This document shows, piece by piece, positions 6,500-63,315 of a DNA stretch of 64,000 bases; the first letter of the stretch is position 1, and each line of letters opens with the position of its first letter. Location of the stretch: the NCBI GenBank assembly GCA_951406725.2, contig OX597824.1:73842001-73906000 (forward strand), in the 5' to 3' direction. A program made the translations under genes and the position numbers. The notes below the pieces were generated by a model. That model made no database searches. It saw nothing but the letters and a program-made list of their open reading frames with translations, and had not been told where the DNA came from. Source of the DNA: Octopus vulgaris (Eukaryota).

Positions 6500-6750
6500 T
6501 ATCTTTATTTCCATTGTTGATTCCACTACGTTTCAGCTGTTATACGCTCAAGCCTTTTTCGGGTGTCTTGTGTTGAACTTAGTTGTTGCATCGGAATTTC
6601 AAACTTAACCTTTTATTTGATCGATGGGAGAACACTGTTCTCATTCCGCTCTCTGCGTTTCGTGACATTTTTATTTTACTTCAGTTCATTTTTTATTTTT
6701 TTTTGTTGTGAATTACCTTGGTGTCTTGCCTGGGATTGAACTCAGAATAC
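6500..6750 (-). mobile_element. Decayed copy of the tRNA-head + hammerhead element (see 62797-63225)
   Basis: Same module order: acgtttcagctg...agcctttttcgggtgtcttg, gaatttcaaac, ttctcattcc, T-rich spacer, gcctgggattgaactcagaat. Confidence 0.55.
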
Positions 6751-6803
6751 ACACACATGCACACACGATTTTAATCACCTTACTTTGAAATTATATATGT
6801 ATA

Positions 6804-7199
6804 CTAGCAGTATCGCCCGGCGTTGCTCGGGTTTGTAAGGGAAATAACTATATAAGCATTTTTAGAGATGTAAAGTATAATAGCCATCTCAATATGGCTA
6901 AACACAAAAGTGGGGTGTTACTGTAGCTTTTTAAGTTCTGAGATTTAATAATACATTTTTAGAGAGTTACTTCCCTTATATGATTGCAAAAAAATGCGTT
7001 AAAAATGGGAAAAAATGATGGTAATTTTTTTTTTTAATCGTAGACTCATCATAGACGCGCGCTACTACCCAGAAGGGCTCGATATGAATCACGACTATAA
7101 GATACCCGGTTTTGGTTAAACTGCACCGCAAAATGTGGGAGTAGTTAGGAATCTAAATCGTAGGAGACAGACACACAACTTCTCTTTTATATATAAAGA
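6804..7199 (-). mobile_element. Non-autonomous Helitron
   Basis: Minus strand begins TC(tttatatataaaa) and ends with hairpin cccgagcaacgccggg + CTAG; inserted between A and T, no TSD. Confidence 0.8.
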
Positions 7200-7513
7200 T
7201 AGATATATATCAATAATACAGTGATTGTTTCTTATCAGGAACAAAATGTTTAATAGGACTGCTATAGAAGTGCTCAATTAAATGAGACAAATATATATAA
7301 ACTATTGTTGCAGAACAAACAAATACAAGGTCATCCACGTAACATTTCATATCTCGAACATTTAATCACATAATGCTTTTTCTTTCAGATAGAATACACA
7401 TGTTTAACATCACGGAAGATGAAACATAACTCATCAGTACAAGCATGTAAGAAAATGCAAGAAAAATGTGTGAATACAGTTCATCACGGTTAAAAGTTAA
7501 TACTTTAGCGATT

Positions 7514-7728
7514 TATCTGTAAATATAATATGTGACTATTATTCGGTAGCCATGATAAAACTTCGAGTTTCGGAAAGTCGGAGCGGAAATCCACGCCGGC
7601 ACCTCTTCAGTTATCGGGTCCGATAACTGAAGAGATGCCGGTGTGGGTTTCCGCCCCGACTTTCCGAAACTCGGAGTTTTATCATGGCTACCGAATAATA
7701 GTCACATATATTATTATATTTACAGATA
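7514..7728. repeat. About 215-bp near-perfect palindrome, each arm carrying a hammerhead motif
   Basis: Centre gttatcgg-gt-ccgataac at 7618-7619; arms of about 105 bp with few mismatches. Confidence 0.9.
7622..7683 (+). ncRNA. Type-I hammerhead ribozyme candidate (mirror copy on - strand about 7556-7616)
   Basis: GATAA-CTGAAGA-(32-nt stem II)-GAAA-CTCGGAG-TT-TTATC; stem I GATAA/TTATC; near-palindromic stem III. Confidence 0.55.
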
Positions 7729-7747
7729 TATATATATATATATATAT

Positions 7748-8391
7748 AACAAAAGGGACATTAGCCATTTGAATGTGGCTAGGGACAGAGCAGGGCGATG
7801 GGGGTGTTACTGTTGCATTTAGCCCCAGGCGAACATCAACGTCACCAGAAAGGCTTGACACCATCACGGCGTCCTCTATCCTGCAAAGGGAGATCATCCA
7901 CCGAAGAAGCGGAAGCCACATACGGACCCAGGTTTCGAGGTGTTTGCCTCTCGTCAACGTATGGTAGGCACTGCCCTTCGATGAACGACTCTCTGTGCAG
8001 GATATTTATATAAAGATTTTCACGTAAATACATTTACTGATTTCGAAAATCTGTTCGACAGCAATAATAATTCTCTAAACGAGATATAGACAGTAACTGC
8101 TCCATAACAAAAGGGACATTAGCCATTTGAATGTGGCTAGGGACAGGGCAGGGCGGTGGGGGTGTTACTGTTGCATTTAGCCCCAGGCGAACATCAACGT
8201 CACTCGTTCATCGCAGGGCGGTGCCTACCATACGTTGACGAGAGGCAAACACCTCGAAACCTGGGTCCGTATATGGCTTCCGCTTCTTCGGTGGATGATC
8301 TCCCTTTGCAGGATAGAGGACGCCGTGATGGTGTCAAGCCTTTCTGGTGACGTTGATGTTCGCCTGGGGCTAAATGCAACAGTAACACCCC
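7748..8391. mobile_element. Penelope-pLTR-like repeat in direct and inverted copies
   Basis: 7748-7990 is partly repeated at 8105-8203 and inverted at 8204-8391; hammerhead motif in both long copies. Confidence 0.6.
8228..8276 (+). ncRNA. Type-I hammerhead candidate with U3 core variant (second copy on - strand 7916-7964)
   Basis: CCATACG-TTGACGA-GAGG caaaca CCTC-GAAA-CCTGGG-TC-CGTAT(A/G)TGG; GUC cleavage triplet. Confidence 0.65.
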
Positions 8392-8417
8392 GTTTAGAGA
8401 ATTATTATTGCTATATA

Positions 8418-8921
8418 TCTATATATATAAAACTCTAGTTGTGTGAGTGTCTGTCCCCTTCGATTTAGATTCCTAACTCCTCCCACATTTTGCGGTGCAG
8501 TTTAACCAAATTCGGGTATCTTATAGTCGTGATTCATATCGAGCCCGTCTGACTATTAGCGCGCGTCAACGATGAGTCTACGATTTTAAAAATAATTTAA
8601 CATCATTTTTTATTCCATTTTAATGCATAAAATGCATCGTGTGTCGATGGCGGCGGAGTTGGCGTCCACGCTCACAGCTGCACCTGTTTGCTTCTCCCCT
8701 TCCCTCCCTCGTGAAGCTGTGGGGAAGGGAGTGTAAAGAAATCAACGTCGTAATGCGTTGTGAAGGAAACCAGCGTTCTTTTAGAACAACGACTTCATGG
8801 CTTGAAGACACCAAAACAAAAATGGCTAAGAAAGCCCGAATTTATAAGGGAAGTAACTCTCTAAAAATGCTTATATAGTTATTTCCCTTACAAACCCGAG
8901 CAACGCCGGGCGATACTGCTA

Positions 8922-8922
<1 letters not shown>
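8418..8922 (+). mobile_element. Non-autonomous Helitron with extra internal segment
   Basis: A|TCtatatatataaaact...cccgagcaacgccgggcgatactgCTAG|T; homologous to 54189-54494 plus about 200 bp of unshared interior. Confidence 0.8.
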
Positions 8923-8953
<31 letters not shown>

Positions 8954-9120
8954 TTTGATAGGTTTCGGCCATTATCGGCCCAGGCCATGTCTAACTTAAT
9001 AGCACCACCATATAATTGTTTTTACACAATTCCTAATAATATTTAATTATAAAAACATAGCAAGACTTTTTTTGAAGTATAAAATGGCTACGAAGATCCC
9101 TTAGAATAAAATACGAATCA

Positions 9121-9690
9121 AGGGGCAGGGCACGAATTTTTTTCCCACGAGAGTTCTGGACCCCAGTTATGAACTCGTTTGCATACAGCCAATCAGAGCT
9201 CAACTATCAAACTAATTTATGGGCGCATAATAAGTGATGGGTGATAAGATAAGGTCACTTGGGTAAGGAATGACCATGCTTCTTTTTCTCTTTTGATAAT
9301 GCTTGTTCTTGTTCTTGTTTCAACCATGGCTGCCTCTGCGTAGTTATTTGTGTTGTTGTTTACTTGTAAAACAGTAAGGGGAGAGGGTTGCTAGCACATC
9401 ATCCTCTACCCACATTTTTCCCATCCACATCTTTACCATATGGGGCCCCTAACAAAATCCGATAATAGGTATAGATGCAAATCTATCCAATTACTTGTCC
9501 CCTTCTAAAATCAGCCATAACTTGGCGATCGGTCGACTTACAACACCGTTCTTCGTCTCGAGCTTACTTTGTAGAGTGTGTTTGTTAACTTGACAACAAG
9601 TTCAAGGTGGGCTCTGATTGGCTGTATGCAAATGAGTTCATTACTGGCGTCCGGATTTGTCGTGGGAAAAAAATTTCGCGGACGGGGCAG
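9121..9690. mobile_element. MITE-like element with about 70-bp imperfect inverted repeats
   Basis: aattttttcccacga...gaactcgtttgcatacagccaatcagagc (9135-9200) is inverted at 9612-9677. Confidence 0.6.
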
Positions 9691-10577
9691 AGGTAAAAAA
9701 TGGTTGAGAAATACTGATCTATAGGAATAGAAGGTGTTGGGTTGGCTGAAAGCATACGCGCGTAAATATAAGTAAACATACAAACACTGTGGTAGCGAAG
9801 TAGACAAACATGTTTGTATTTCAATGCACACAAGTGTATTTTATTTACACTCACACACACATAAACACTACACAGTTATCATTTCTATTTATAATACATT
9901 TACATGGAATAAAATTAATCTAAAAATTAGCTCAATCGCCAAAGACTAATACACGCCCTCATGCAGCCAGGCACGCGCGCACACACACACACACACACAT
10001 ATACATACACAGAGGCACACACACACTCACACACGTGTGTGCGTAATGAACTTTGGGACTTCATTTACGATATTTAGGGTTCATATTATCTGGCATTACA
10101 TATATAATGTCATCATGCTATATATACTTTATATGTATATATATATATGTGTATGTGTATGCGTGTGTGCGTGTGTATGTATATTTGCGTAAATTTATAT
10201 ATATATATATATATATACATAACACATATATATAATTATACACACACACACGCACGCACTTGTGCTGATGGAATAAAACAGACGACACTCGATCAACAAA
10301 GTTATTAATCAACATATATTATACACTTCGTCCCTTATCGAGTTTGATGGATATTTTGATGAGTGCCACTATACAACTCACGATTTAGCAGCGAAAGTTG
10401 TTAATTATGCGGCTATAAATTAATAGGTTTAAGGAACAGGTAAATCTGTACTACATATGTTTCCAAGAACAGCGGAACATGTGTTACGTAACTTAGCGTT
10501 GTAACATATATATTAGGTTTGACTTACTTTCACGCAATTTTACCTGCGGTTTACAAGTTCAGTGTCGCAAGGTTTCA

Positions 10578-10764
10578 GATTTTGGTACAAGGCCAACAGT
10601 TTCTGGGGCGGGGTAAGTTTATCCCATTAGTTCTATTGTGTAACTGGTACTTAATTTAGCGACCTCGAAAAGGTGAAAGGCAAAGTCGACCTCGGAGCTA
10701 AAATCAGAAGAAATGCCGCCAAACATTTTCCCGGTGCGGTAACGATTCTGCCAGCTCGCCACCT
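10578..10764 (-). mobile_element. Meta-domain SINE, decayed
   Basis: taactggtacttaattt...aaaggcaaagtcgacctcgg...ctgccagctcgccacc. Confidence 0.65.
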
Positions 10765-10799
10765 TAAAATAGCAGAAAGAAATATTAATACAAATTTTA

Positions 10800-11078
10800 A
10801 AACGTGTGCGAAATATAAATAATCTACATTCGCATTCCAATAACACTGAATGGTTTCCAAGTTCTTATATCTGTTTCTTGTTGTGACCAATTCAGAAGGC
10901 AAAATACAAATGTTGCGGAAGGTACGGAGAAAGTGTTCTGGACAAATATATTTGTTGTAGATGGATTCTAAGCGATGCTACTTTCTTTGTTCTCTTGAAA
11001 TATTCATTTCTTGATAACAATTTGTCTATGGATCTATTGCATCTGACATTGTCACCTTGTCCAAGATACCTATAGTAC
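10800..11078 (-). mobile_element. R4/Dong-like LINE post-RT fragment, decayed
   Basis: Minus strand with frameshifts: YYRYLGQGDN...NEYFKRTKKV...YNKYI..QNTFSVP...DIRTWK...NANVDYLY. Confidence 0.5.
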
Positions 11079-11478
11079 TACAGTGTATGTATGTATGTAT
11101 GTATGTATGTATGTATGTATGTATGTATGTACGTTTGTGAGCATGTGAGTGTGTGCAACTTGTTTGTATAAACTAATGAATATATGTATGAATGTATCTA
11201 CCCACATATAAGTGTATGTGTGTTTGCTTACGTAGCATATTTGCACACGCTTTTATGCATACAAACATAGATATAAACATATACATACATACATATATAC
11301 ATATAGGTATGCATGAACATTATATTCATATACATAATATACATAATATATGTGTGTATGTGTGTATGTCTGTGTGCTGTTTGTATATATGCATTTTCGC
11401 GTGGCCCTATGTGTATGTATTTGACTTGTTTTATATATGTATATAAACATAAAACATATACATAGTTACACACACACA

Positions 11479-11516
<38 letters not shown>

Positions 11517-11746
11517 TACTAATGGAATAAAGCAGACGACACTCGATCAACAAAGTTTATTAATCAGCATATGGTATACCCTTATGTGTGTAAGTATATA
11601 CATATTTATGTGAGCATAAGTATATAAGCTGTGTGCGTATATTTTTGTTTGCATGTGTGCACCCGTCGACTTCGAGTATATTATTTGGGTATGTGGTATT
11701 TCCTATATATGTGAGTACCTAATGAAAGAATGACTGAAAGACAGAG

Positions 11747-11789
<43 letters not shown>

Positions 11790-11869
11790 TGAGGGGGAAG
11801 TAAATAGAAAGAGAAACAGGGATGGGTCACGTGGGAGTGAGAGACATTACCATTGGTGCATTCATAACA

Positions 11870-11901
<32 letters not shown>

Positions 11902-12184
11902 GTATGCATGCATGTAAGCATATATATGTATGTATGTAAGCATATATATGTATATGTGTGTGTATGCATGTATATATATATATGATGTATATAAATCACA
12001 TTAGTGTCTTTGTATATAAACATGCGATTGTGTAAACTTTTCCATACATGTATACATATACACTCGCGTTCGTATACACTCGTGCACTGTCCATCCGAGA
12101 GCTCCAATGAATTCGAAATTGTTCATGCCTACCCATGCACACTAATAAGCATGCTAGGAAACTAAAAAAAGAAGAAGGTGAATG

Positions 12185-12406
12185 TGTATGTATGTATCTG
12201 TGTATGTATGTATGTATGTATGTATGTATGTATGTATGTATGTATGTATGTATGTATGAATGTATGTATGTATGTATGTATGTACGTATGTGTGTATGTA
12301 TGTATGTATGTATGTATGTATGAATGTATGTATGTATCTATGTATGTTTGTATGAAAATATACACACACACACATATATATACATATATATATATGTATA
12401 TGCATG

Positions 12407-12444
<38 letters not shown>

Positions 12445-12486
12445 TATATACTTATATATACAAATACATATATATATACATATATG

Positions 12487-12535
<49 letters not shown>

Positions 12536-12559
12536 TATACAAATACATATATATATACA

Positions 12560-12598
<39 letters not shown>

Positions 12599-12640
12599 AT
12601 ATATAAATTTCGTTGCGTATTTATATGTGTGTGTGTGAGT
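12185..12640. repeat. Compound (TATG)n/(TA)n microsatellite
   Basis: Directly visible; source of the spurious YI/VC/HT ORFs. Confidence 0.95.
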
Positions 12641-12984
12641 GTACATTTTTGTCCCGTTAAAGTGTTATAGTTGAAAGAATGGAGACAAAAGACAAAGAAC
12701 GAGTGTGGGCGGGGCACACAAAATCTTACTCTTATACACTTGCATATCAACACACATGCACACAAACACGCGCACGCACACACACATAATAGGTATATTT
12801 AGAAATTATGTCATAGGTGATAAGCTATTTATATAAATTACGCCGTATATTATACGTATACATACATACATACATACATACATACATACATACATACATA
12901 CATACATACATACATACATACATACATACATGAAGAAAATATATACTAAAAGTAAGATAGATATATATATAGGAAGAAAAAAAA

Positions 12985-13292: not shown

Positions 13293-13426
13293 TTTCATAC
13301 ATACATACATACATACATACATACATACATACATACATACATACATACATACATACATACATACATACGTAAATACATACATACCTACGTACGTACATAC
13401 ATACGTACGTACGTACGTACGTAAGT

Positions 13427-17983: not shown

Positions 17984-18207
17984 CGAAATAAGGAGTAGAA
18001 GGACAGCCGACGACTGATGAAGGGTCGTTTTTTATGTTGCTTGTCTTGTTTTCCATTTGTTTCTCTTGTTCTTTGCGTATCCAACGTTATTTTCGTATTT
18101 CATGTTGTTTACGTTTTGCGACGTCCTGTACCCATATATGCATACCTATATACATGCATATGTATGTATGTACATATGTGTGTATATATGCATATATATA
18201 TTATTTA

Positions 18208-18744: not shown

Positions 18745-18860
18745 ATAAAGTCGAATAACCGTGTAGAAAGTGAAGCTCCACTCGTTCGTTGCCTCCCGCG
18801 TTAACAGTAACAACAACAGCAGCAGCAACAGCAACTAAAACATCGTCAAAAACAGCAATG

Positions 18861-19025
18861 TGGAGGCGCAATGGCCCAGTGGTTAAGGCAGCGGACTCGC
18901 GGTTTCGATTCCCAAACCGGGCATTGTGAGTGTTTATTGAGCAAAAACACCTAAGCTCCACGAGACTCCGGCGGGGGAGGGTGAACCTCGCTGTACTCTT
19001 TCACCACTACTTTCACTCTTTTTCC
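18861..19025 (+). mobile_element. SINE family B, 3'-truncated
   Basis: tggaggcgcaatggcccagtggttaaggcagcggactcgcggtttcgattccc head. Confidence 0.75.
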
Positions 19026-19171
19026 CTACTTCGGCCACAAAGCAGAATAACCATGGTGTAACCCACTATGGTGTGGTAAACTTTCAGACCCTAGTCTAGA
19101 TTGCGAATCCGCTGTACCCCAGGATGATTCGGCTCTCCACCGTTGAAAGCCACCGTTTATGGAATGAGGAT

Positions 19172-19240
19172 AACAACGTAGCTTTCGCACCCGTGTAGCC
19201 GCCAGTCTATCGCGTGTGGTGGGTGCATCTTCAAGTTGCC
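19172..19240 (-). ncRNA. Type-I hammerhead candidate (U3 variant)
   Basis: Minus strand: GGCAAC-TTGAAGA-t-GCACCC...GGGTGC-GAAA-GC-TA-c-GTTGTT. Confidence 0.5.
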
Positions 19241-19317
19241 ACACGCATTCTTAGTAGCTTAGAGTAGGCTCGAATTAGAGATTATTCTTTGTGACTAATG
19301 GCGTGAGTCCCAATTAG

Positions 19318-19413
19318 AAGAAGAAGAAGAAGAAGAAGAAGAAGAAGAAGAAGAAGAAGAAGAAGAAGAAGAAGAAGAAGAAGAAGAAGAAGAAGAAGAA
19401 GAAGAAGAAGAAG
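19318..19413. repeat. (GAA)n, about 32 units
   Basis: Uninterrupted tract. Confidence 0.95.
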
Positions 19414-19919
19414 ACAACAGCAGTAACAATGATTTTAAATTTTGGCACAAGGCTAGCAACTTCACGGGTGAAGTAAGTCGATTACATCGACTCCAGTGCT
19501 CGACTGGTACTTATTTTATCGACCCTGAAATGATGAACGCCAAGTCGACCTCAGCAAAATTTGAATACAGAACGTAAAGACGAACGAAGTGCCGCGAAGC
19601 ATGTCGTCCGGCGTGTTAACAATTCTGCCAACTCGCCGCAGAAGGAAGTGTAAGAATATTATAAAGAATGAAATATAGACAGAAGGGTGAGAATAAAAGG
19701 GCTAGGTCCCTAAGGTGTCACAATGAAAACAAATCAACAGCGAATATTTCTGTTTTGTGTGCTATGTTTTTTAACCACCGGTCATGTCTGATCATGCGGA
19801 TGAACTATTATATAATCAAAGGAACCTCATTTATGGTCATCTTATCTTCTTTGGAGTGTGGGGATCTTCAAGACACAGCATGGCTCTGCAATCACGAGGT
19901 TTCGGGTTCGATTATACTA

Positions 19920-26005: not shown

Positions 26006-26292
26006 TCATCATCATCATTGTTCGGCTGTGGTCGAGACAATGGAATTTACCATGCTACGCCAGACTTCACGGTCCATCATGGCATTACGGAGGTCCTGTT
26101 GCTGGATGCCTGTATCCCTGGAGATTACATCAGGGTAGGAGAGTGTGCGCCCTCTGGTATTGCGAGTAGATGGCTTCCAGAGGAGAAGAGTAGAAATTAC
26201 TTCTTTTTCAGCTCTACAACAATGTCCAGCAAACTGGACTCTCTTACCTTTCACAAGAGATGACACAGGTGGTAGTTTCCCATATATTTGCA
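26006..26292 (-). mobile_element. RTE-clade LINE 3' end, 5'-truncated
   Basis: QIYGKLPPVSSLVKGKRVQFAGHCCRAEKEVISTLLLWKP...AMMDREVWRSMV...* then (TGA)n tail; possible TSD attacca at 25999 and 26293. Confidence 0.8.
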
Positions 26293-27517
26293 TTACCAGC
26301 TGGTTACCATGACAACCGCACGCTGTGTTGTGGTTCACTATTGTCTGTGCCACTGTTGCCTATGTTGATTTTTCCCACTAGATTCTTCACACCACGAGAT
26401 TCTTTTCACCCGCGTTTTGTTTTTAATTCTTCTGTGTGTTAGTATATTACATATTTTTCTGTGCTTCTGTGTGTTGGTATTTTCCTGTCCTGTTTTCTGC
26501 ATGTTAGTATTTTTACATATTTTTCATTTTATATATTTTTGGGACTCATTGACTCAGATAGCTGGGGATTTCACTAGGTTAATTCTGTTCATAAAAATTT
26601 TAACTAGGAATATTTCTTAAACCGTTAGCTTCACATTTCAACAGCCTAACTGAAATTTAACCCGCGAAACAGGAACTGAGAGGGATATCGTGGAACAGAG
26701 AAACTGTGGGTGATACAGTTAATTTGACATTATTTTTGCAAAATATATGCATGCAAAAACACATAAGATACAGGTATTCTTTTCCTTGGGACAAATTCTT
26801 TGTTGACCAGTGTTATTCTTATCGTAGTTTGCAAATCCAAGCATGAAAACGTTACTCAACTTTGGAGTTTTGGAGGCAGATGAATGCATACATGTACATA
26901 TAAGCTTATGTATGAATACATACATCCACATGCACGTATATATTAATGCTGTACACAAATACATGACAGGTATACATAATACTGAAATACGCATAAAGTA
27001 AACATATGCAGACAGATATATTAATATCACAAATTAAAAAAAATAATAAGACCATACAATCAATGAAGAGACAAAAGAAACAGTAAGCTGATGCATGTTG
27101 ATTTTATTAGGTATTTTTGTTTATTTAGAAACCTACAATGAACAAGTGTGACATTAAACTATAAATTTCACAGGGTAAAACCTTAAAGTTGACACCGCTC
27201 CGCTAAAAGCAGAAAACATTTGTTTCGTTATTGGCTAAAAAAACACAGTTTTTTCGATTTTTAAACTTCTGTAACATTTTTCTCCATAACATCATACGTT
27301 CAAAGCAATGAGACTGGAAGGCTACATTATTATAGCCGACTTTCAGATTTTTTACTTCCTTTTAAAAAATGTATAGTTTGCGAATGAAAAAAAAAACTAG
27401 ATCCTTAGAAAGAATAAGTCCTGGGGTTGATTTGCTCGACTAAAGGCGGTGCTCCGGCATGGCCACAGTCAAATGACTGAAACAAGTAAAAAATAAAAGA
27501 ATGCTCATAATCACCAT

Positions 27518-33783: not shown

Positions 33784-33965
33784 TACATTTATATATAAAT
33801 ACGGAATCTAATGCGCTTAGCTTAGTTTTTCCTTGGGGCTGGCCAGATTGGAGCAATCTCAAGATTAATCAGCCGAAATTGCGTGGATGATCCGGTTCTT
33901 GACTGAAGATTGAAGGCTTCGAATGTCCCGTCCGTGTTTTTTGCGTCGTCTTCTAAATGTCCCAG

Positions 33966-34027
<62 letters not shown>

Positions 34028-34258
34028 AACAATCTTACTTAGAAATGGATGCGTGCGTTCAGTCATATATAAATAAATAAATAAAACATATGCATATATA
34101 CATACATATTTGTATGTAACTACCTCTACATGTATATATACATCTAGAGGTAGGTACGTACAAATATGTATGTATATATGCATATGTTTTATTTATTTAT
34201 ATATATTCTGCACGCATATTTTTTTTCTCTCCTTCTTTCTGTGTTTTTTCTCTGTGTA

Positions 34259-34296
34259 TCTTTCTGTTGAAAAGCGTAGGCTCGAAACGTTAAAGA
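34259..34296 (+). ncRNA. Minimal hammerhead-like motif, core mutated
   Basis: TCTTT-CTGTTGA-aaagc gtag gctc-GAAA-CG-TT-AAAGA; A6 is replaced; relative at about 51710-51750. Confidence 0.4.
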
Positions 34297-34424
34297 CTTG
34301 TTTTATTTATATTTCCTGAGCGCCATACTAATACAATTGTTTGTTTGTATTCCACCTGCCTTCGTCTTTTGTTTATTTCCGTAAACCTGCCTTCGTCTTT
34401 TGTCTATTTTCATAAAGCTTCCCG

Positions 34425-34526
<102 letters not shown>

Positions 34527-34643
34527 TCAGATGAATATGGTACTTAAGTTGAGGCACCAGAATTTAGTACAGTATTATCCATACAATTTCAAAATAAGGT
34601 GATTAAAATCAAAATAAGCTACAAGGATATCCAGAGGTTTATT

Positions 34644-34729
34644 GCAGTACGATCGTTTCAAGCAATTCCATTTAATTGAACAATGCAATCATTACATCAA
34701 TTTAAATGCAGAGCAATCCTCAGCAGCCC
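34644..34729 (-). ncRNA. Hammerhead-like motif with long stem II region
   Basis: Minus strand: gggctg-CTGAGGA-(about 57 nt)-GAAA-CGATCG-TA-ctgc-AATAAA; palindromic stem III ACGATCGT. Confidence 0.4.
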
Positions 34730-35268
34730 AAAGACATAAAATTTAATTAAATTAAAACAGATGGACACATTAGTACAATTTTACCTAAAATCTCCAAGAA
34801 GGTAAGAAGATAGACAGAGAACATGCTGTCTTCACTTGAGCTTAGAGTAGCTTCTAAGCTGAAGTACAACATCGATATTCTTCCCTGTGTTTGTGAAATT
34901 TTTGTATCTCTGCCGTAAGGTTTAACTTCCACACGCGCCAGCTTAATTCAATTCGTCCTTAGTCGAAAGACACCTGTTGTTATGTCCTGTTATTATTTTT
35001 ATTGTATTCTTTTTATTTCATTTATATAACATTGTTTCTGTATACATTCGATGCTTTCTCCAAGTTTTTCCTTGGGGCTGGCCAGATAGGAGCAATCTCA
35101 AGAATGATCAGCCGAAATTGCGAGAATAATCTGGTTCTTGACTGAAGATAGAAAACTTCGAATGACCCGTCGTTGTTTTCTTTGTATCGTCTATCTCGAT
35201 GTTTTGTTGTCCCTTTTTATATCACCTAGTTGTCCGGATGTTTTGCATTCTTGTCCCATTTTGTATTT

Positions 35269-35396
<128 letters not shown>

Positions 35397-35402
35397 GTAA
35401 AT

Positions 35403-35914
35403 ATATATTTACTTCTTTGTATATTTTTCCCTCACGGGCTATTCTTTACTGGAAAGCAATACTCTAGCATTGCATTACTAATTTATTGAAACTTCTTCAC
35501 CGTTCTCGTTCTGTTAGCGTTTCGGCGTTTCAGTCGAGTGTATTGGCATTAATGTGGTAACATCTGAAATGTTGTCGTGGTATATGTTTGGCTGATGAAG
35601 ATAGATCAAGTATATGTGGGCAGGCATATCTTGAAACATCTGAAACCGGCGCCGGTCCCACGTTATCCTTTTCTAGGTATTTCATCTTTCAGATGTTCTC
35701 CCTGGAGGTAAGACAATTTTTTTCAAGTTTGTTGCACTCACGCATTTTTGCTAGTACATACGCGGTGAAGCTATACATTAGCGTTGTATTATTACGTTCG
35801 CTATTTCCAGTAAATATCGGTACTTCGTTGTGCCATATATTTACTTCTTTGTATATTTTTCCCTCACGGGCTATTCTTTACTGGAAAGCAATACTCTAGT
35901 ATTGCATTACTAAT
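35403..35914 (+). mobile_element. Retrozyme/pLTR-like unit: 432-bp period with about 80-bp terminal direct repeat
   Basis: atatatttacttctttg...cattactaat at 35403-35482 and 35835-35914; (TA)n on both sides; contains a canonical HHR. Confidence 0.65.
35587..35661 (+). ncRNA. Type-I hammerhead ribozyme, canonical core
   Basis: tTGG-CTGATGA-AGAT..tcaag.atatg[loop]catatcttga..ATCT-GAAA-CCGGCGCCGG-TC-CCAc; GUC triplet ends at 35657. Confidence 0.75.
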
Positions 35915-37905: not shown

Positions 37906-38624
37906 ATAAAACTTATATATAAAGAACGTGAAATTCACGAATTGACAAACACGGAAAAACGGACAGTAATTCAGAGCCTTCATTCTTCAGTCAGAAACCG
38001 ATTCATCATGGCAAATTTCGGCTGTTTAATTCTGAGATTTGCTCCGAAAAGGCCAGCCCCAAGGAAAAGCTAAGCTATGGGCATTAGATTTGCTTGGTAG
38101 AAGGAAAGAATGTGACAACAGAGACGAATAGGAAAACAAGAGACGAAGATAAAATTGGAAACAGTAACGAATAAAAACAGGAATGATACGGGGGCGTCTT
38201 ACGACTTTGAGACAAAATGAGACAAAACAATTGATCAGCAAGCGTGGGAAGCGGTTACCTTTTCGGTAGAGAAGACACGTGTAGTACAAGCGGCTGTCAG
38301 CAGTGGAATGGCTTAGCAGCAGCAGGTTGCAAGAAGGTGAGAGAGAAAGAGAGAGGGGGATTGAGGAGGGCCGAGAAATGACCAAGAGAGAGAGAGAAAG
38401 AAAGAATTAAAGAGGGTGAGAGGAAGGGGCGCCAAAATAACTTGGTAAAGAAGCGCCAAAATACCTTGAGGAAGAAGCAATGGCGGATGATAAAGGGGAA
38501 GTTTAAAGTTGAAGACATCGTGCAATAGTGGAGATATGACAAACATAAATGGATTGGTGCACGTACGCTGCGATAATATAGAATAAAACTTATATATAAA
38601 GAACGTGAAATTCACGAATTGACA
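37905..38624 (-). mobile_element. Direct-repeat-bounded element nested in a SINE A microsatellite
   Basis: aataaaacttatatataaagaacgtgaaattcacgaattgaca at about 37905 and 38582; SINE A halves at 37786-37835 and 38820-39040. Confidence 0.55.
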
Positions 38625-43772: not shown

Positions 43773-45354
43773 TGTTGTGTGGACGCCCCCAGACGATGAA
43801 GTAGGCTAGCTCAGTACGTAGATATAGAGGGAGAAGTTTAGACGTCGAGAGTAGCGTTGAGTAGCGGTGAGAGTCGAGCAGATTAGAGTTGAGTAGCAGG
43901 CATCCGAACGTGCGACATAACAGTGGCGATGATGATTTCGTAGCTCACACAGCCACTGTGTAGTATTGCGATATAACAGTGGTGACGAGGTTTCGAATTG
44001 TACCGAAATGGAAGAGTTACTGAAAGCAGTTGTAAAACAACAAGAGCAGCAGCAGCAGCAACTACAGAAGTTAACAGAATTGTTCCTGCAGTCGAGAAAT
44101 ACGACAGATTCATTTTCAGCAGATGGTGTTGCAAATTCCATCGAAGAATTTCATAACAATCCGGATGAAGGATACAATGAATCTCTTCGGGACAGATTTA
44201 ATGGAAGGATTCGACCTGAGGGATCTATCATTGAATACATTATGTAACAAGGTGAATGCGTCACAGTCTGTGTCAGAAAAAGCATCGGAAAAAATGAAAT
44301 TAAAATTGAAAAAGATGTACCCTAATATTTTTTCGAAAGAGCTCGGTATGTGTAAAAAATTAAATTAAGTTTGAGTTGAAAGAAAATGCGGTGCCGGTGT
44401 TCAAACCGAAAAGGAATGTACCTTTTGCGGCGTTAAATCAAGTTGAGAAGGAATTAAAAAGATTGGTAGACATGGAAGTAATTGAAAAAGTAGACTACTC
44501 TGAGTGGGCGGCTCCTACGGTACACATAGAAAAGAAGGTCAATGAGGTAAGAGTATGTACGGACTTCTCAACTGGTCTTAATGATTGTTTAAAAAATTAC
44601 AATTATCCTCTTCCAAACCCAGAAGAAATATTTGCTAAGTGCAATGGTGGGAAAATTTTTTCCAAGCTGGATTTGTCAGAGGCCTACCTCCAACTACTGG
44701 TAGATGAAGAATGTGCTAAAATATTAACAATCAATACTCATAAAGGTCTGTACCGTTTCAAAAGACTTCCATTTGGGGGTAAAGGTCGCACCAACATTTC
44801 AGCAAGTGATGGATACTATGCTAGCAGACTGTGGGTTCGCGGTTCCATACTTGGATGACATATTGATCAAAAGTGAATTTTTTAAACATAGGTGACAAAG
44901 TGTATTTTAAAATATATAGTAACGGAAAACAGGACTGGGAACAAGGAAGCATAACTGGACGTCTTGGTAACGTGATGTACATAGTAAAAGGACCAAAATA
45001 TGAACACAGAAGGCATTTAAACCAATTTTAAAAAAAATATACCAAAAATCAAGAGAGGCAAGAAGAACCAATGGATTTATGGTATGATTTGTTCCAGGTC
45101 CTAGAACCACAAGCAAAAGTGTTCGAGGTCCCAGAACCACAAGCAAAAGCAGAACCAACACGTAGGTCGAACAGGAAGAGAAAACCTACAGAAATGATGG
45201 AAATTAACACTAAGAGAAAAAGATATGCCAGTTTCTCACCGTAGAAATAAAATTGATAAATTCGGATTTAAAAAACTCAAAAGGGGGAGGTGTTGTGTGG
45301 GCGCCCTCAGACAATGAAGTAGACTAGCCCAATACGTAGATATAGAGGGAGAAG

Positions 45355-45414: not shown

Positions 45415-45621
45415 GATAGATAGATAGATAGATAGATAGATATGTAGGAGACCAAAGTGTACGTACGCCGCTATATGTATATAAAAAAGGAATATAAAAA
45501 AATGGGGCAAGAATGCAACAGGCGACAACAAAACATCCAGACAATTAGATGATACAAAAGGGACAGGAAAAAACAAGGACGGGTCATTTGGAGTTTTTTT
45601 TCGTCAGTCGAGTACCGAATT

Positions 45622-45652
<31 letters not shown>

Positions 45653-46397: not shown

Positions 46398-46450
46398 TAT
46401 ATTGGTCTTCATACTGATTTTTATAACTTTTTCTGTTTTTTTTTTTTCAG

Positions 46451-47300
46451 GTGCAACGTCTAACGAGTACGTGGATGACCAATGCTTTATCCGTGGAATA
46501 TTTTATAAACATTTTTTCAATTCCTTTAATACATTTCATAAGCGAAGTTTTTGGTCGTAAAGTTGGCTTGCTGTTGTCTCTGAGCGGTACACTTGGAAAA
46601 GTCATAGTAATTACAGCAACGATGTTCTTCAAACTACCTTTGGACGTCTTGGTTTGGGCATGCGCTATCAATGGCATCACCGGAGGAACTGGTGGCTTCA
46701 TCACTGGTATAGTTTCGCACATTTCCGATAAAAGCAACCTCGGAAAATCCTGCTTCGATCATTTTTCAAGAATTCTGGCTTTAGCCATTGGAGTGTCCGG
46801 CATTTTTGCTGTTATCTTCGGTTATATAATGACTTCCTTTAGCAGAATCATCGTGTCTCTGTGTTTGGTGTATTTAGCTTTAGTCTGTGCAATCATTATT
46901 ATATTTCGTTTTGAGGAATCACAAAACAGAAACGCCAGCCAAATGAGTCCAACAATGAAATGTTCCTTTCGGGATTTATGGAATGTAGTGCCTATCAGAA
47001 AATTTTTATTGTTGTTCTTTTTCTTGTCAATGGCAGCCTTTAGTTATTTGCCTGCTGGAGGACAGACTATCTTTGTCACGCAGTTTTTTATTAACAAATC
47101 AGTTAACGCCTGCAACAACACCACGATCGGAATATACTTAGGTATTTTCGCTTTCAGCTTTTACATCACTCACTTCTTCGCAAGCATGGCAAAAATGGAG
47201 AATATAAGCAGTAATGTGATAATCGTTGGATGTCTTCTACTCGGGTTCGTCAGCAGTATTGTTCTTTCTTTCACAATGAGAATGTTCTTTTATCAAGCAG
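46451..47300 (+). CDS. SLC46-like transporter, coding exon 2 (850 bp)
   Basis: ttttttcag|GTG...caagcag|gtataa; several hydrophobic helices; MFS motif-A-like ISEVFGRK; GITGG; SHISD. Confidence 0.85.
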
Positions 47301-47539
47301 GTATAAACTCCTTTATTTCTTTCGCTTTCCCCCTTTTATCTTTCGTTTCTTCTTTTTTCTTTTTTCGTTTCTTTTATTTTCCTTTTTTTCTCACGTTGGC
47401 AGTGTTGTTCTTTTTTTAAATTCATAGTATTTTTTAAAAATCTTCTTCTGTAACTTTACAAAAATACAATAATCCGCATCATTAGTATTTAATCCAAGGT
47501 TACTAGGATGAAGTTTGCATCTCTATTTAAGACTTTTAA

Positions 47540-52543: not shown

Positions 52544-53851
52544 AAGTAAAAGTCGTACACTACTGTCGGTGTACCCGACTATCCCCTCTCCTAAAATTTC
52601 TGGCCCTGTGCCAAAATTTGAAATTATTATCAAGTAAAAGTCGTGCACTAGGGTCGCTGTACCCGACTATCCCCTCTCCTAAAATTGCTGGCCTTGTGCC
52701 AAAATTTGAAATTATTATCAAGTAGAAGTCGTGCACTAGGGTCGGTGTACCAGACTATCCCCTCTCCTAACATTGCTGGCCTTGTGACAAAATTTGAAAT
52801 TATTATCAAGTAAAAGTCGTGCACTAGGGTCGCTGTACCCGACTATCCCCTCTCCTAAAATTTCTGGCCTTGTGCCAAAATTTGAAATTATCAAGTAAAA
52901 GTCGTGCACTAGGGGCTGTACCCGACTATCCCCTCTCCTAAAATTGCTGGCCTTGTGCCAAAATTTGAAATTATTATCAAGTAAAAGTTGTGCACTAGGG
53001 TCGATGTACCCGACTGTCCCCTCTCCTAAAATTTCTGGCCTTGTGCCAAAATTTGAAATTATTACCAAGTAAAAGTCGTGCACTAGGGTCGCTGTACCCG
53101 ACTATCCCCTCTCCTAAAATTTCTGGCCTTGTGCCAAAATTTGAAATTATTATCAAGTAAAAGTCGTGCACTAGGGTCGGTGTAACGACTGTCCCCTCTC
53201 CTAAAATTGCTGGCCTTGTGCCAAAATTTGAAATTATTATCAAGTAAAAGTCGTGCATTAGGGTCGGTGTACCCGACTATCCCCTCTCCTAAAATTTCTG
53301 GCCTTGTGCCAAAATTTGAAATTATCAAGTAAAAGTCGTGCACTAGGGTCGGTGTACCCGACTATCCTCTCTCCTAAAATTGCTGGCCTTGTGCCAAAAT
53401 TTGAAATTTTTATCAAGTAAAAGTCGTGCACTAGGGTCGGTGTACCTGACTATCTCCTCTCCTAAAATTTCTGGCCTTGTGCCAAAATTTGAAATTATTA
53501 TCAAGTAAAAGTCGTGCATTAGGGTCGGTGTACCCGACTATCCCCTCTCCTAAAATTTCTGGCCTTGTGCCAAAATTTGAAATTATCAAGTAAAAGTCGT
53601 GCACTAGGGTCGGTGTACCCGACTATCCTCTCTCCTAAAATTGCTGGCCTTGTGCCAAAATTTGAAATTTTTATCAAGTAAAAGTCGTGCACTAGGGTCG
53701 GTGTACCTGACTATCTCCTCTCCTAAAATTTCTGGCCTTGTGCCAAAATTTGAAATTATTATCAAGTAAAAGTCGTGCACTAGGGTCGCTGTACCCGACT
53801 GTCCCCTCTCCTAAAATTGCTGGCCCTGTACCAAAATTTGAAATTATTATT
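52544..53851 (+). repeat. About 88-bp minisatellite (about 15 units) derived from a Meta-SINE 3' part
   Basis: Unit aagtaaaagtcgtgcactagggtcggtgtacccgactatcccctctcctaaaatttctggccttgtgccaaaatttgaaattattatc; follows the SINE head at 52431. Confidence 0.9.
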
Positions 53852-54188
53852 AAGGTGGTGACTGGCAGAATCGTTTGCACGCTGGGCAAAATGCTCAGCG
53901 GCATTTTTAAAAAGTTATATCCACAGGTTTTCTAAAGAAATTACAGCACTGACAGTTACGAAGATTCGTATACGAATACATCTGTATAAACAATTTGATC
54001 GAATAAAGGAATGGGTGCATATGCATATTTCACGAGTTATTGCTCCTTTTTCAGCACCACATCCAAACCATTAACTATCCACGAACGCATTGTAGAGATA
54101 AATTTTTAAAAAATTATCGAATCACACTGCTAACACACGTAGGACACACAGCATTGACTTACAAGCCTTTAATATACTTGTTTGCTAA

Positions 54189-57214: not shown

Positions 57215-57822
57215 AAACTTTCACTCACCCGAAGTTCTCATGGAAACTAGTCATCTGACCCGAAAGAACATTCTTTAGAGTAGCTAACCCCGTCCCACAC
57301 GTCATATCTGAGCGCTTTTCCCTTAATTCGTAGGTTTATGTCGACTCGAACAAGTATTGCTTATTTACACTGTATAACAGAAATACATAACACAGTGACC
57401 TCCCTTGCGGTGCGAAATTGTAAGAGAACTGAAATTTATTTCATTTGTTACTTGTTTCAGTGATTTTAGATAAATGAAAGACAGTCAACCATGGTGTGAT
57501 TTGAAATGAGAACTTATAAAATATTTGCAGATATTGCTTCAGTATGCATAGTTTCACATCACAAGGGAGATCACTGTGTTATTTACAATTTAAATGGTAA
57601 TGCTTCGTCTTCCTTCCTAGTTATAAATTAAGCTGATTTCAGTATACACACACTTAAGATTTTGACTTGAAACCTCAGCATGATGAGTGAGGATAGTGAA
57701 AATATATTAACCAAAGGAATTTTTTTTTGTAATAGATTTGTTTTATGTTTTCCGTTCACTACTATAACATTTTAAATCAAATATGGAAATTAGAATTTAA
57801 GTCTTTATTTAAAAAAAAAAGG

Positions 57823-58233
57823 GGATCTTTTCGGTTTGAACGGCAGTTTTTAACATAATTTCTAGGTAACTGAAAAATTTTAAACTTCGTATACTGGTAG
57901 AATGTGTTTATAAAACATCTTTTCCTCTTGGCTTTATTGAGAAAATTCTATAGTTGTAAGATATTTGTTGTTTCTTTTCTTCAATTTCAACCAATCAGTG
58001 ACGTCTATTGAGTTAAAAAGCTTTGTGCTGTATGAATATTCCCGCGTTTAAGAAACACATTGGGTTTATTTACATTTGTGAAGAAAAAAAAGATACCCTT
58101 CCCCCACCCCTAACCGTAACTAACCCTAACCCTAAAAGAGATTGAAATGCAATAGATCGATACTAGGGTCATAATTATGGGTGGCAATTTCATGACAACG
58201 CTAGAAAAACTGCCATTCAAACCGAAAAGATCC
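57823..58233. mobile_element. MITE of the same family as 39389, opposite orientation
   Basis: Same TIRs; flanks aaaaaagg/aaaaaacg; internal cctaaccc repeats. Confidence 0.8.
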
Positions 58234-58651
58234 AAAAAACGTTTCATGAGACAATTTAGTTATGGAACCAATATTAGTTATTAATTTTTGTTATAATTAT
58301 AACCATTATTTCTTCATTATTCACAAATATGACTTATATAGTCACAGAATTCTACATAAGATGGTGACCGCCCTTGTAGTGCAAATGTATACAAATAATA
58401 TTACCATAATTTCTGACATACAAGATGAGTTTTTCAGACCAAAATAATACTGGTAGCTGACTTATACACCAAAATGACATTGGAGGACCAAAAATTCCAT
58501 GTGAAATAGAACAGGATTTAGAAAGACAGTGACAATGTTTGAATGTTTATATAACACGTTTACACTATATACCACATCGATTTGTATGTCAGAACATATG
58601 ATATTTCAGCAACTGAGGTGTTTGAAGGGAAAAGTCAACTCTTAAGATTTG

Positions 58652-58937
58652 GGTACTACTTGAAAACAGTGGTCCCGGTGCCTGCACTCGCGTAGTCACG
58701 CATCCGTGCTAGCTAGTCGTGACTAGTCGATCCTACAACGACTACCTAGCAAAGTAAATAAAACACAAAATAAATAATTTTTTTACACTAAGTAAATAAC
58801 TTTTGTTAAACACAGTAAATAAAACACAAAAACACAAAGTAAATAATTTTTTAAACAAAGTAAGGATCGACTAGTCATGACTAGCTAGCGCAGATGCGCG
58901 AGTGCGCGCACCGGGACCACTGTTCTCAAGTAGTACC
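58652..58937. mobile_element. MITE with about 80-bp TIRs and 9-bp TSD (Mutator/Merlin-like)
   Basis: ggtactacttgaaaacagtggtcccggtgc... / ...gcaccgggaccactgttctcaagtagtacc; TSD taagatttg at 58643-58651 and 58938-58946. Confidence 0.85.
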
Positions 58938-59224
58938 TAAGATTTGAACGCAAAAACACAAAATCAAATAACCACAACATCTTTACTCTTTCATTTTTCC
59001 TGTTTAACTCACTTTGCCTTCTTTCAGTTTTGTTTTGCTTTCTTTTTTTTAAATAAAATAGCCATTTTTCACTTTTGATTTTTTTTTAAATATTCCTTCT
59101 TTTTTTTAAGTTACAGTGCATTTATTAGTATTGATAACAACAGGTTCAAACTTCAAAGCAGTATTTTCACTCATCAACTGTACTCAATGGGTTCAAGAAA
59201 ACTCCATTTTAACAAGAATTCTTT

Positions 59225-60400
59225 ACTGTACTTATGGGCATTATTCACAAATGTTTACAATGCTTATAGCATTGTTCACCACTATTTACCATTCTTATGA
59301 GTACTGTTCACAAATGTTTACACAGTTGTTTACTGAGATAACAAGCATTGTTCACAACTGTTTGCGATGCTTATGAGAACAGTTAACAAATGTTTACAAC
59401 TGTTTACTATGCTTATGAGCATTGTTCACAAATGTTTACTATGCTTACAGCACTGTTCTCTACCGTTTTCTATGGTTATGAGCACTGTTCACCAATGTTT
59501 CCTATGTTTACATCATTTGTTTACTCAGTTAATAAGCATTGTTCACAACTGTTTACTATGCTTATGAGTGGTGTCCATGAATGTTTCACAGTATTATTTA
59601 CAAAAGTTTACTGAGCCAACAAATAGTTCAGAGTTCATACAGGTGTACTGGTCTTAAATCATTGTTTACAAATGATTACCCAGTTTATAGTATTGTTCAT
59701 GTTTACCTTTAAAACAAGCATTGCTCATAAATGTTTATCATGCTCACTGTAAATATTGTCCATGCTAACATTGTTCACTAATATATCCTGCATTTGTAAG
59801 CTTTGCTTACAACTGTTTACCAGGCTAACAACATTCTTCATAAACGTGCTCATAAGTTTTGTTCATAAATGTTTACAATGCATATAGTACCCTTTACTGT
59901 TTGCCATGCTTAGAGCATTGTTCACCAATGTTTACTATGCTTAAAGCATTGTTCACCAATGTTTACTATGCTTAAAGCATTGTCCACAAATGTTTACCAT
60001 ACAGCATTCTTCACACAGTATGGTCAACAAAGTTTATCATACGTCCAGTATTGTTCACAAATGTTTACCATGCTTAAAATATTGTTCACAAATGCTTAAA
60101 GTGCTAATAAGCATTGTTCATACTTAATACTTACATTCTTAATACTTACAATCATTCTTAATACTTACAGTGTGGTTCACAAACGTTTACCATGCTTACA
60201 GTATTGTTTACAAATGTTTACTGTACTTCTAGCATTGCTCATGGATGCTTGCAATGCTAACAGGCATTGTTCATTAAACTTTACAATGCTAACAAGCATT
60301 GTTTACAATGTTTACCATGCTAAGAAGCACTGTTCACAATATTTACCATGCTAACAAGAATTGTTCACAATATGTTTACCATACTTCCAGCATTGTTCAG
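59225..60400. repeat. Degenerate minisatellite, unit about 31-33 bp
   Basis: Consensus about gcattgttcacaaatgtttaccatgctta(ca). Confidence 0.85.
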
Positions 60401-61819
60401 AAAAAGGCTAATAACTTTCCAAAAGTCCACAATCCTTAAAATACAATAAACCCCCCTAGTTTTTTTATCAGTTTTTTCTTCTTCCCTTGGTTCCAGTTAT
60501 TGGACTGTAAACCATGCTGATAACCATCTTCAGTGGTATTGTATAATCAACTATATCCACACCAGTAATTGTTTCATTGACATTTATTTTATCAAACTCA
60601 GAAAGATGAAAAGGCAATGTCGACTTGAGCAACATTCAAATCCTATACAAAATAGGTTATGGATAATAGGAAAGAAAAAAAAAAAGGGAAAAAAAATCTA
60701 TTAGGGGGTAAAAATACTGATTTATTGCCTATTTTTTGTCATCTTTTTTTTATATATTAAAAAATTTTTTTTCTTCTTTTTATTTTACTTTAGATAATTG
60801 TTAAGTTACATGTCAATGGTAGTGGTGGTGGTGGTGGAAGTGGTGGTTGATGTTACTGTTGTTGTAGTGTTCCTCATTATTATTGTTGGTGATGTTACTG
60901 CTAATAGAGTTCTGCCATTGCAAGTGTTGTTTAGAAATGATGTTGTTGTTGTTGTTGGGGGTGGTGGTGTCATTATCAGTTATGTTTCTGTTGCAGTTCT
61001 TTACAATATGCTGCTGCTGTTGTTGTTGTTGTTGTAGTCATCGTCGACGTTGCTGTTAATCCTTGATAATCCGCTGCTTTAGTCGTCATGTCATCGTTGT
61101 TGCTTGTTCTTATTGAATGGTTTAGTCTATGACCTGACTGACAGCAGGTTTTTTTTTAAGACAATGGAACCGTCTCACAGAGAAATTTCACAAAGCAGAA
61201 GAAAGAAAAGAAAGAGTACAGGGGAAACAAAGGCAGATACGGAGAGGTGAGTGTGGATAGGATGGTAGGAGGGGAAGAACAGATGGAGAAAAAGGATAGA
61301 AGGAAAGTAAAAAAAAAAATTAAAAGAAAAAAAAAACTAAACCAAATGATGAAAGACAGAGGAACATGTAAAGGGCAGCACAGCTTAAAATAAGAAATAC
61401 TTAGTGACATTCATGACAAATCCAGTACAAAATAGAGATATCGTCACGAGGAATCCATCTGGCTGTCCAACTAGTTCTCGTATCGCTGTCAAAGATTTCA
61501 TCAACCAATTTGCATTGCTCTGAGAGTCAATGGGCTGAAAAGTACAGAAAATAAAACAATGACAATAAAACAAAAATAAGAATTGAAAATTCAATCAATT
61601 AATACTTATCTAAACCCCCACACACACTTTTTTTTTTATCCCAACACATCTGAAATTACCTGTTAGCTCTGTGATACAATCTTCCAGTTGCTAAGTGATT
61701 TCAATAGAAACCTTTCATCAAAATTTCGCAATTTATGCTCCAAATGCTAGCTTAATAACGACAAAGTTAGTTTACCAAATTCTTTGTTATTTTCAAAATT
61801 GAAACACAGGTAGTGTATT

Positions 61820-62102
61820 CATCATCATCATCATCATCATCGTTTAACGTCTGCTTTCCATGCTAGCATGGGTTGGATGATTTGACTGAAGTCTGGCGAA
61901 CCAAATGGCTGCACCAGACTCCAATCTGACCTGGCAGAGTTTCTACAGCTGGATGCCCTTTCTAATGCCAACCACTCCAAGAGTGTAGTGTGCGCTTTTA
62001 CATACCACCTGCATGAGGGCCAGTCAGGCAGTACTGGCAATGGCCACACTCAAATGGTGTTTTTTTTATGTGCCACCTGCACAGGAGCCAGTCCAGTGGC
62101 AC
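61820..62102 (-). mobile_element. RTE 3'UTR copy
   Basis: (CAT)n cgtttaacgtctgctttccatgctagcatggg...ggatgcccttt, the reverse of the 57000-57214 region. Confidence 0.8.
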
Positions 62103-62684
62103 TAAAACATATAGTAACAAAAGGGTTAATTATCTCAATTATCTAACTAAGGTGGTGACCTGCTAACCACAAGGTTGCAGGTTCAGATCTTACTATAAGC
62201 CAGTGTTGTGCATTTTGTGCAAGATGCTTCATTCTGACTGCTTATACCAGTTCTCTTAGAATATGTCACTCTAAGTCTTTCTACTATAGGCTCAAGTCCT
62301 GAAAACTTGATTACAGTGTTTGACTAGTAATGATGTCAATGCAATCAAGTTATAGTATTTAAACTCAGACAGTGAAGCTGGATAAAATGCTAAGCATTTT
62401 GTGTGGTGTGCTAATAATTCTGCCAGCTCACCATCTTAAAGACCTATAATGCAAGATTATTATTGGGACTTAGTATATCTAAAGACTACGTTATTAAAAA
62501 AATACTTTTTCGAAGAAATAGTGTAACGTTGCCTGTTTATGTGAGTTCGTTGAAGAAAAATTTGCATGCTCAAATTTATAAACCCATTTTCACCTTGTAA
62601 ATTAAAAAAATCATATATATGCCTCATAACATACGAATGGAAATTATTAACTTGTAAATAATTATTACAAATGAAATTAAGTTG

Positions 62685-63315
62685 GCGAGCTGGCAGAACC
62701 ACGGTGTATTTCTTCTGGCTCAACATTCTGAGTTCAAATCTGCCCAACTCAACTTCCCCCTTCATCATATTGGTGTTGATAAAATAAGTACCAGTTCTAT
62801 ATTTAAGAGATGAGGAATTATGTACATTATTTACATTCAACGGATATTTGTCCTCATCTTGCTTGTTGTTAACATAACGTTTTGGCTGATATACCCTCCA
62901 GCCTTCTTCAGGTGTCTTGGGGAAATTTCAAACCCGAGTTCTCATTCCTAAGGTATTTTTCGATGTTGTTATTATTATTATTATTATTATTAACATCATT
63001 ATTGTTCAGGTCACTGCTTGGAATCGAACTCAGAATCTTGGGCTTAGTAGCCCACGCTCTTAACCACTACGCCATATGCCAGTGGGCTTAGGGAAAATAT
63101 CTTAGGAATGAGAACCCAGGTTCGAAATTTCCCCAAGACACCTGAAGAAGGCTGGAGGGTATATCAGCCGAAATGTGTTAACAACCAACAAGATAGGGAC
63201 AAATATCCGTCAAATGTAAACAATGTAAAATAAGTACCAGTTTAGCGCTGAGGTTGATGTCATTGATTTATCCCCTCCCTCAAAAGTGCTGGTCTTGTGT
63301 CAAAATTTGAAACAA
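62685..63315 (+). mobile_element. Meta-domain SINE split by an insertion
   Basis: 5' part up to aaaataagtaccagtt (62796); body resumes after 63242. Confidence 0.7.
62797..63225 (-). mobile_element. tRNA-headed element with inverted hammerhead-bearing arms and 17-bp TSD
   Basis: TSD taaaataagtaccagtt at 62780-62796 and 63226-63242; arms 62823-62960 / 63093-63225; tRNA-like head on - strand 63080->63006. Confidence 0.75.

What the first reader, a model, noticed from the sequence alone, without database searches (positions are those of the whole stretch)
6500..63225. High density of apparently unrelated hammerhead-bearing repeat families
About seven sequence-distinct HHR-like motifs occur in 64 kb (7622, 8228, 19172, 34259, 34644, 35587, 63137). 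All have type-I topology with short palindromic stem III, several lie beside (TA)n tracts, and none has a recognisable adjacent RT/GIY-YIG ORF. Inference: a large, under-annotated set of non-autonomous ribozyme retroelements in this genome.
Basis: inference. Interest (0 to 1): 0.7.

Follow-up and report, generated by a model that had tools for sequence, protein, structure and literature searches.

The report
Penelope retrotransposon ends carrying hammerhead ribozymes
Six of the seven motifs are real hammerhead-shaped sequences at the ends of common jumping-gene families (Penelope-like elements, plus protein-free repeats that likely borrow their enzymes); this is a known kind, no denser here than elsewhere in a genome that likely holds about a hundred thousand of these predicted self-cutting RNAs.

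Summary
The motifs are real, but the 'non-autonomous' reading is half right. Six of seven belong to multi-copy families that keep type I hammerhead architecture; 19172 is a defective motif lying antisense in a tRNA-type SINE. 7622, 34259 and 63137 are cut-short ends of protein-coding Penelope-like elements (PLEs): longer copies elsewhere carry GIY-YIG and/or RT sequence in the same orientation. 8228 (about 358 nt) and 35587 (about 432 nt) are tandem non-coding retrozymes. 34644 has no coding partner shown. A family-independent descriptor finds 3 motifs here against 0.2 in shuffles, but also 18 in 400 kb sampled across the genome (2.9 per 64 kb), so the window is ordinary; extrapolation gives about 1.1e5 motifs. 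Scattered PLE hammerheads are published (PMC4209133). Less ordinary: the 63137 end repeat opens with a tRNA-like promoter at which solo copies begin, the 34259 family has U at core position 6, and three unlisted motifs have a scrambled strand order. The scan noted the density, the tRNA-like promoter and the scrambled motif before on other DNA of this genome. Cleavage and expression are untested.

The parts
7522..7617 (-). Family A, inverted 5'-truncated arm; hammerhead core starts at 7610
7618..7715 (+). Family A (7622): 3' end of a coding PLE; core 7627-7633, predicted cut after 7678; stem II mutated in this copy; ends at (TA)n 7706-7748
7746..8203 (-). Family B retrozyme, about 1.3 monomers of about 358 nt; intact U3-variant hammerhead, core starts at 7957
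8204..8391 (+). Family B (8228), head-to-head second arm; intact hammerhead, core 8235-8241, predicted cut after 8267
18860..19414 (+). Family C: tRNA-headed SINE with (GAA)n tail; the 19172 motif (about 19172-19240, core 19228-19234) is on the opposite strand and defective
34206..34427 (+). Family D (34259): 3' end of a very young coding PLE; minimal hammerhead with U at position 6 and an extra base after A9; core 34264-34270, predicted cut after 34291; stem II mutated in this copy
34527..34858 (-). Family E (34644): 5'-truncated end of a long AT-rich element; core starts at 34723; U.U at base of stem II; stem I damaged in this copy; coding partner not shown
35403..35912 (+). Family F (35587): retrozyme, partial tandem of an about 432-nt monomer between (TA)n tracts; intact hammerhead, core 35592-35598, predicted cut after 35657
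62780..62796 (+). 17-nt target-site duplication, left copy (right copy 63226-63242), bracketing the whole family G pair as one insertion
62792..63085 (-). Family G full end repeat (pLTR) of a Poseidon-like PLE: tRNA-like head (about 63081-63010), (AAT)n, hammerhead (core starts at 62911, GAAA mutated), tail
63095..63225 (+). Family G (63137), head-to-head truncated arm; core 63142-63148; cleavage triplet damaged in this copy
6466..6747 (-).
33803..33960 (+). Family H, not listed: scrambled-order hammerhead-like motif, core at 33903
34864..35272 (+). Family H copy, core at 35142
37966..38102 (-). Family H relative with compensatory changes in stems I and III, core at 37990

Best explanation
The motifs are the hammerhead-bearing ends of several retroelement families: three are 5'-truncated ends of protein-coding Penelope-like elements (PLEs), two are tandem non-coding retrozymes that likely borrow the PLE enzyme, and all were likely pasted by a PLE reverse transcriptase-endonuclease that nicks AT-rich or (TA)n DNA and usually stops early. 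Shown: family membership, coding sequence in longer copies, ladders of 5' ends, head-to-head inverted pairs, (TA)n ends, a target-site duplication. Inferred: the enzyme primes inside the RNA a short way past the ribozyme, so even the shortest copies keep the hammerhead; priming from the opposite strand would give the inverted arm; the palindromic stem III would let two hammerheads of a tandem transcript pair and cut as a dimer, releasing unit-length RNA (possibly circles for the retrozymes). Solo genomic copies then decay. The many families and high copy numbers of PLEs in this genome give about three recognisable motifs in any 64 kb.
For: A: of 30 loci found with a GIY-YIG fragment from one A locus, 15 have the A hammerhead downstream in sense, 13 of them 1,115-1,337 nt from the match start; an unbroken 717-aa RT+EN frame with an A-like end exists (L256, L257). 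D: a PLE C-terminal frame (Pfam GIY-YIG E 0.0017, below the curated cut-off) ends about 530 nt upstream of the hammerhead in L216; 25 copies start 24-1,519 nt upstream of the core. G: the unit precedes the ORF start and follows the ORF stop in the same copies (L364, L366, L362; Pfam RVT_1 E 5.5e-10 and 5.8e-08), and the reading frame runs through the hammerhead as in anole Poseidon (PMC11167929 passages). B and F: monomer periods 357-358 and mostly 431-434, copies run through the predicted cut site. Stems differ between families while the core is kept; a B relative shows a compensatory change in stem I. Density 18 hits in 400 kb vs 1.7 in shuffles. PMC4209133 reports the same anatomy.
Against: No cleavage or RNA data. 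No full-length D element with RT was recovered. Pfam gave no hit for the 717-aa A partner, for its EN fragment or for the G EN region; those calls rest on recalled motifs. E reaches more than 2 kb upstream without an ORF. One of 30 B loci has a GIY-YIG-like motif nearby that I did not follow up (L066). D departs from the canonical core in 27 of 27 copies. In anole Poseidon hammerhead cleavage was not needed in vitro and no reads ended at the cut site (PMC11167929), so the dimer-cutting step may not matter for mobility.
Confidence: 0.85

Rival explanations
1. One reading: each motif marks a dedicated non-autonomous ribozyme retroelement family.
For: True for B and F (tandem non-coding monomers). 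Possibly for E (no ORF in more than 2 kb upstream). Solo G repeats start at a fixed point and so behave like a SINE.
Against: A, D and G continue into PLE coding sequence in longer copies. A and D show ladders of 5' ends rather than one start. C is a SINE with an antisense defective motif.
Confidence: 0.1
2. The window is a local hotspot or a host-selected ribozyme cluster.
For: Family profiles give 11 hits in the window vs 27 in 400 kb (4.3 per 64 kb), and none in 20 kb of flanks.
Against: Those profiles were chosen from this window and count inverted pairs twice. The family-independent descriptor gives 3 here vs 2.9 per 64 kb elsewhere (P 0.55). Most window copies carry disabling changes.
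Confidence: 0.04
3. Chance matches in repetitive AT-rich DNA.
For: The loose descriptor is reached by 1 of 60 shuffles; one of three hits (7437) belongs to no family examined; 19172 fails.
Against: Strict and relaxed descriptors: 0 of 60 shuffles; architecture kept across six unrelated families with different stems.
Confidence: 0.01

Closest known systems
Minimal type I hammerheads of metazoan Penelope-like elements (Cervera and de la Pena 2014, PMC4209133; read parts 1-2 of 4)
   Same: Many sequence-distinct families per genome, mostly single motifs attributed to truncated PLEs, pairs on opposite strands 100-700 bp apart, extra base between positions 9 and 10.1, palindromic 15.2-16.2, predicted dimer action.
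   Different: Density here is far higher than their counts (about 2,000 in S. mansoni, 4,000 coelacanth, 9,000 X. tropicalis; descriptors differ). U at position 6 in family D is not in the parts I read.
Non-LTR retrozymes of animals (PMC7229834, passages and section 15; bioRxiv 10.64898/2026.07.22.740005, parts 1-2 of 5)
   Same: B and F are non-coding tandem monomers of 350-430 nt with a type I hammerhead; mussel repeats are 350-390 bp; a U.U at the base of stem II (family E, some B copies) is described for axolotl HHR_Amex2, which cleaves.
   Different: Circular RNA and cleavage are not shown here; insertions are short partial tandems with head-to-head arms in (TA)n. Axolotl has 126,247 motifs in about 28 Gb, roughly a tenth of the per-base estimate here.
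Poseidon of the green anole (PMC11167929, passages)
   Same: Hammerhead overlaps the ORF start in the pLTR; genomic copies end in a tail inside the ORF start; AT-rich targets; both strands extended in vitro.
   Different: Family G's pLTR opens with a tRNA-like A/B-box head followed by (AAT)n; no such promoter appears in the passages read.
Schistosoma SINE-like hammerhead repeats (Sm-alpha, Sj-alpha), seen only through the review PMC6765202 (passages); originals not held or not read
   Same: A polymerase III-type promoter followed by a hammerhead in a short repeat.
   Different: Those are non-coding tandem repeats; G is the end repeat of a coding PLE.
Type-SGC hammerhead (Eckert et al. 2023, PMC10085705, passages)
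   Same: Family H has cleavage site, GAAA and CUGANGA blocks in S-G-C order.
   Different: In H the 5' strand of stem II lies upstream of the cleavage block instead of right after CUGANGA, which that paper assumes cannot be split; theirs came from metatranscriptomes.

Membership tests
Type I hammerhead ribozyme | CUGANGA and GAAA core with UH cleavage site | tested here: met
   A, E, F, G canonical; B has U3; D has U6 in 27 of 27 (departure)
Type I hammerhead ribozyme | Stems I, II, III in type I order | tested here: met
   Six families (21/42, 35/46, 25/27, 10/24, 24/30, 16/100 intact copies)
Type I hammerhead ribozyme (19172, family C) | Paired base of stems I and II, on the transcribed strand | tested here: not met
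   G-C at base of stem II in 2 of 25; stem I off by one base; antisense to the SINE
Type I hammerhead ribozyme | Self-cleavage | not testable with these tools
   Needs an in vitro assay or raw RNA reads
Endonuclease-positive PLE (A, D, G) | RT plus C-terminal GIY-YIG ORF continuous with the hammerhead end | tested here: met
   A; G; for D only the C-terminal part with GIY-YIG
Endonuclease-positive PLE (A, D, G) | 5' truncation, head-to-head inverted copy, pLTR on both sides of the ORF | tested here: met
   Ladders; inverted arms; pLTR on both sides seen for G only (L364)
Endonuclease-positive PLE | Clade by RT phylogeny (Poseidon, Neptune, Nematis) | not tested
   Clade names used here (G Poseidon-like, D Neptune-like) rest on recalled motifs and on likeness to PMC11167929
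Endonuclease-positive PLE (E, 34644) | Coding ORF upstream | tested here: inconclusive
   More than 2 kb of shared non-coding upstream sequence, no joined ORF in 25 plus 8 loci
Non-LTR retrozyme (B, F) | Non-coding tandem monomer of 150-450 nt with a type I hammerhead | tested here: met
   Periods 357-358 and 431-434; no PLE motif in 25 F loci, one unexplained nearby motif in 30 B loci
Non-LTR retrozyme (B, F) | Circular monomer RNA | not testable with these tools
   No raw RNA reads were offered
tRNA-derived SINE (G) | tRNA-related head with A and B boxes | tested here: inconclusive
   Boxes at tRNA spacing; Rfam tRNA aligns model positions 1-58 but at 11-14 bits, cut-off 29
tRNA-derived SINE (G) | Independent non-coding family | tested here: not met
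   The unit is the pLTR of a coding element

The most novel reading that the evidence does not exclude
Family G is a protein-coding Penelope-like retrotransposon that has captured a tRNA gene as an internal RNA polymerase III promoter: the whole element is transcribed by polymerase III, and its downstream end repeat is transcribed on its own and spreads as a SINE that is part of its own driver. Support: 21 of 32 heads start within -7..+8 of tRNA position 1 and none more than 17 nt upstream, whereas D and A copies form long ladders; three near-full copies have no run of four T in 2.1-2.4 kb; an older subfamily keeps the same layout. Alongside it, the genome carries about 1e5 hammerheads, including a young active family with U at core position 6 and a scrambled-order motif with compensatory changes.
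Probability: 0.45. Interest if true: 0.65.

Novelty: new member of a known kind. Interest (0 to 1): 0.33.

Why it matters
As filed, it is an ordinary sample of a known phenomenon. It matters modestly because this genome likely has one of the highest hammerhead densities yet estimated (about 41 per Mb), invisible to Rfam, and offers young families of coding PLEs and non-coding retrozymes side by side with the same insertion marks, which makes the proposed PLE-retrozyme link testable. If family G is really read by polymerase III, it would show a route from a coding retrotransposon's end repeat to a SINE.

Tried and rejected
Rfam on the whole window: the 150 best of 384 matches shown were microsatellite or hairpin artefacts, no hammerhead. 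ARAGORN found no tRNA in 18 of 18 loci at default score; lowered thresholds gave mixed, unreliable calls. My first reading of G as a separate tRNA-SINE was dropped after finding the ORF on both sides. Sequencing runs for 35400-35910: no RNA holder listed and only assembled contigs, so no reads were laid; no evidence either way. Walking upstream of E found no joined ORF. 2834 and 18014 hold a CUGANGA but no full fold; 2834 had no family match among fetched loci. Minimum-energy folding does not recover the hammerhead fold for A, B, E, as expected for dimer-type motifs; not used. Literature searches: hammerhead+Penelope+octopus, SINE+tRNA+Penelope+hammerhead, retrozyme+hammerhead+Penelope, hammerhead+SINE+tRNA-derived, SINE+Penelope-like+tRNA-derived+non-autonomous, octopus+SINE+Penelope+retrotransposon, Penelope+polymerase III+retrotransposon+tRNA promoter, hammerhead+A6U: none listed a PLE with a tRNA-type promoter or a natural U6 hammerhead family, judged from listings only. 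Lunse et al. 2016 (PLE hammerhead variants) and Ferbeyre et al. 1998 were not held, and no supplements were read; variants such as U6 may be described there or in Repbase.
Full report
Setting. The window is G000:C11:73842001-73906000 of a 2.80-Gb genome. It is rich in microsatellites and SINE-like repeats. From recalled repeat types it looks octopus-like; no call established that.

Noticed in passing
window 33803-33960(+), 34864-35272(+), 37966-38102(-), 45513-45622(-): Family H, ending in (TA)n: three of four copies carry a hammerhead-like motif in scrambled (S-G-C, split stem II) order with an extra helix; the 37990 copy has compensatory changes; one more in 400 kb of sampled genome. No coding partner seen in 24 loci.
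   Followed up: partly
window 6466-6747(-): Older relative (G2, about 75-80% identity among copies) of the tRNA-headed PLE end repeat; 367 first-look candidates.
   Followed up: partly
window 2790-2950(+) and 17985-18135(+): Decayed repeats with a CUGANGA core but no complete fold; the first resembles the G/G2 tail by eye, the second has relatives in three other loci.
   Followed up: partly
window 46427-47419(+): 330-aa open frame of a multi-pass membrane protein with splice-like ends (about 46452-47290); resembles a major-facilitator transporter exon (recalled; Pfam no hit). Nearby repeats may be intronic.
   Followed up: partly
window 44200-45300(+): Broken Ty3/gypsy-like retroelement remnant (Pfam RVT_1 E 6.5e-05 at 44364-44855).
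   Followed up: partly
window 26015-26359(-): C-terminal fragment of a LINE frame ending in (GAT)n; RTE-like by recall.
   Followed up: no
window 52544-53854: 15 tandem copies of an 88-nt unit at 92% identity, apparently cut from the common SINE.
   Followed up: no
window 6806-7200 and 8420-8922: A repeat present as inverted halves around the A and B insertions (arms 7010-7177 and 8444-8611, 90% complementary).
   Followed up: no
L256, L257 (G000 C8 and C1): A young PLE subfamily with unbroken 717-aa frames and many near-identical copies; its A-like hammerhead core is mutated in L257.
   Followed up: partly
L412, L417, L424, L428, L431-L433: Family E's upstream region is more than 2 kb of AT-rich sequence with internal repeats of several hundred bases, unusual for a retroelement tail.
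   Followed up: partly
L121: A B-like retrozyme relative with C.C at the base of stem II, a compensatory change in stem I and a different stem III palindrome.
   Followed up: partly
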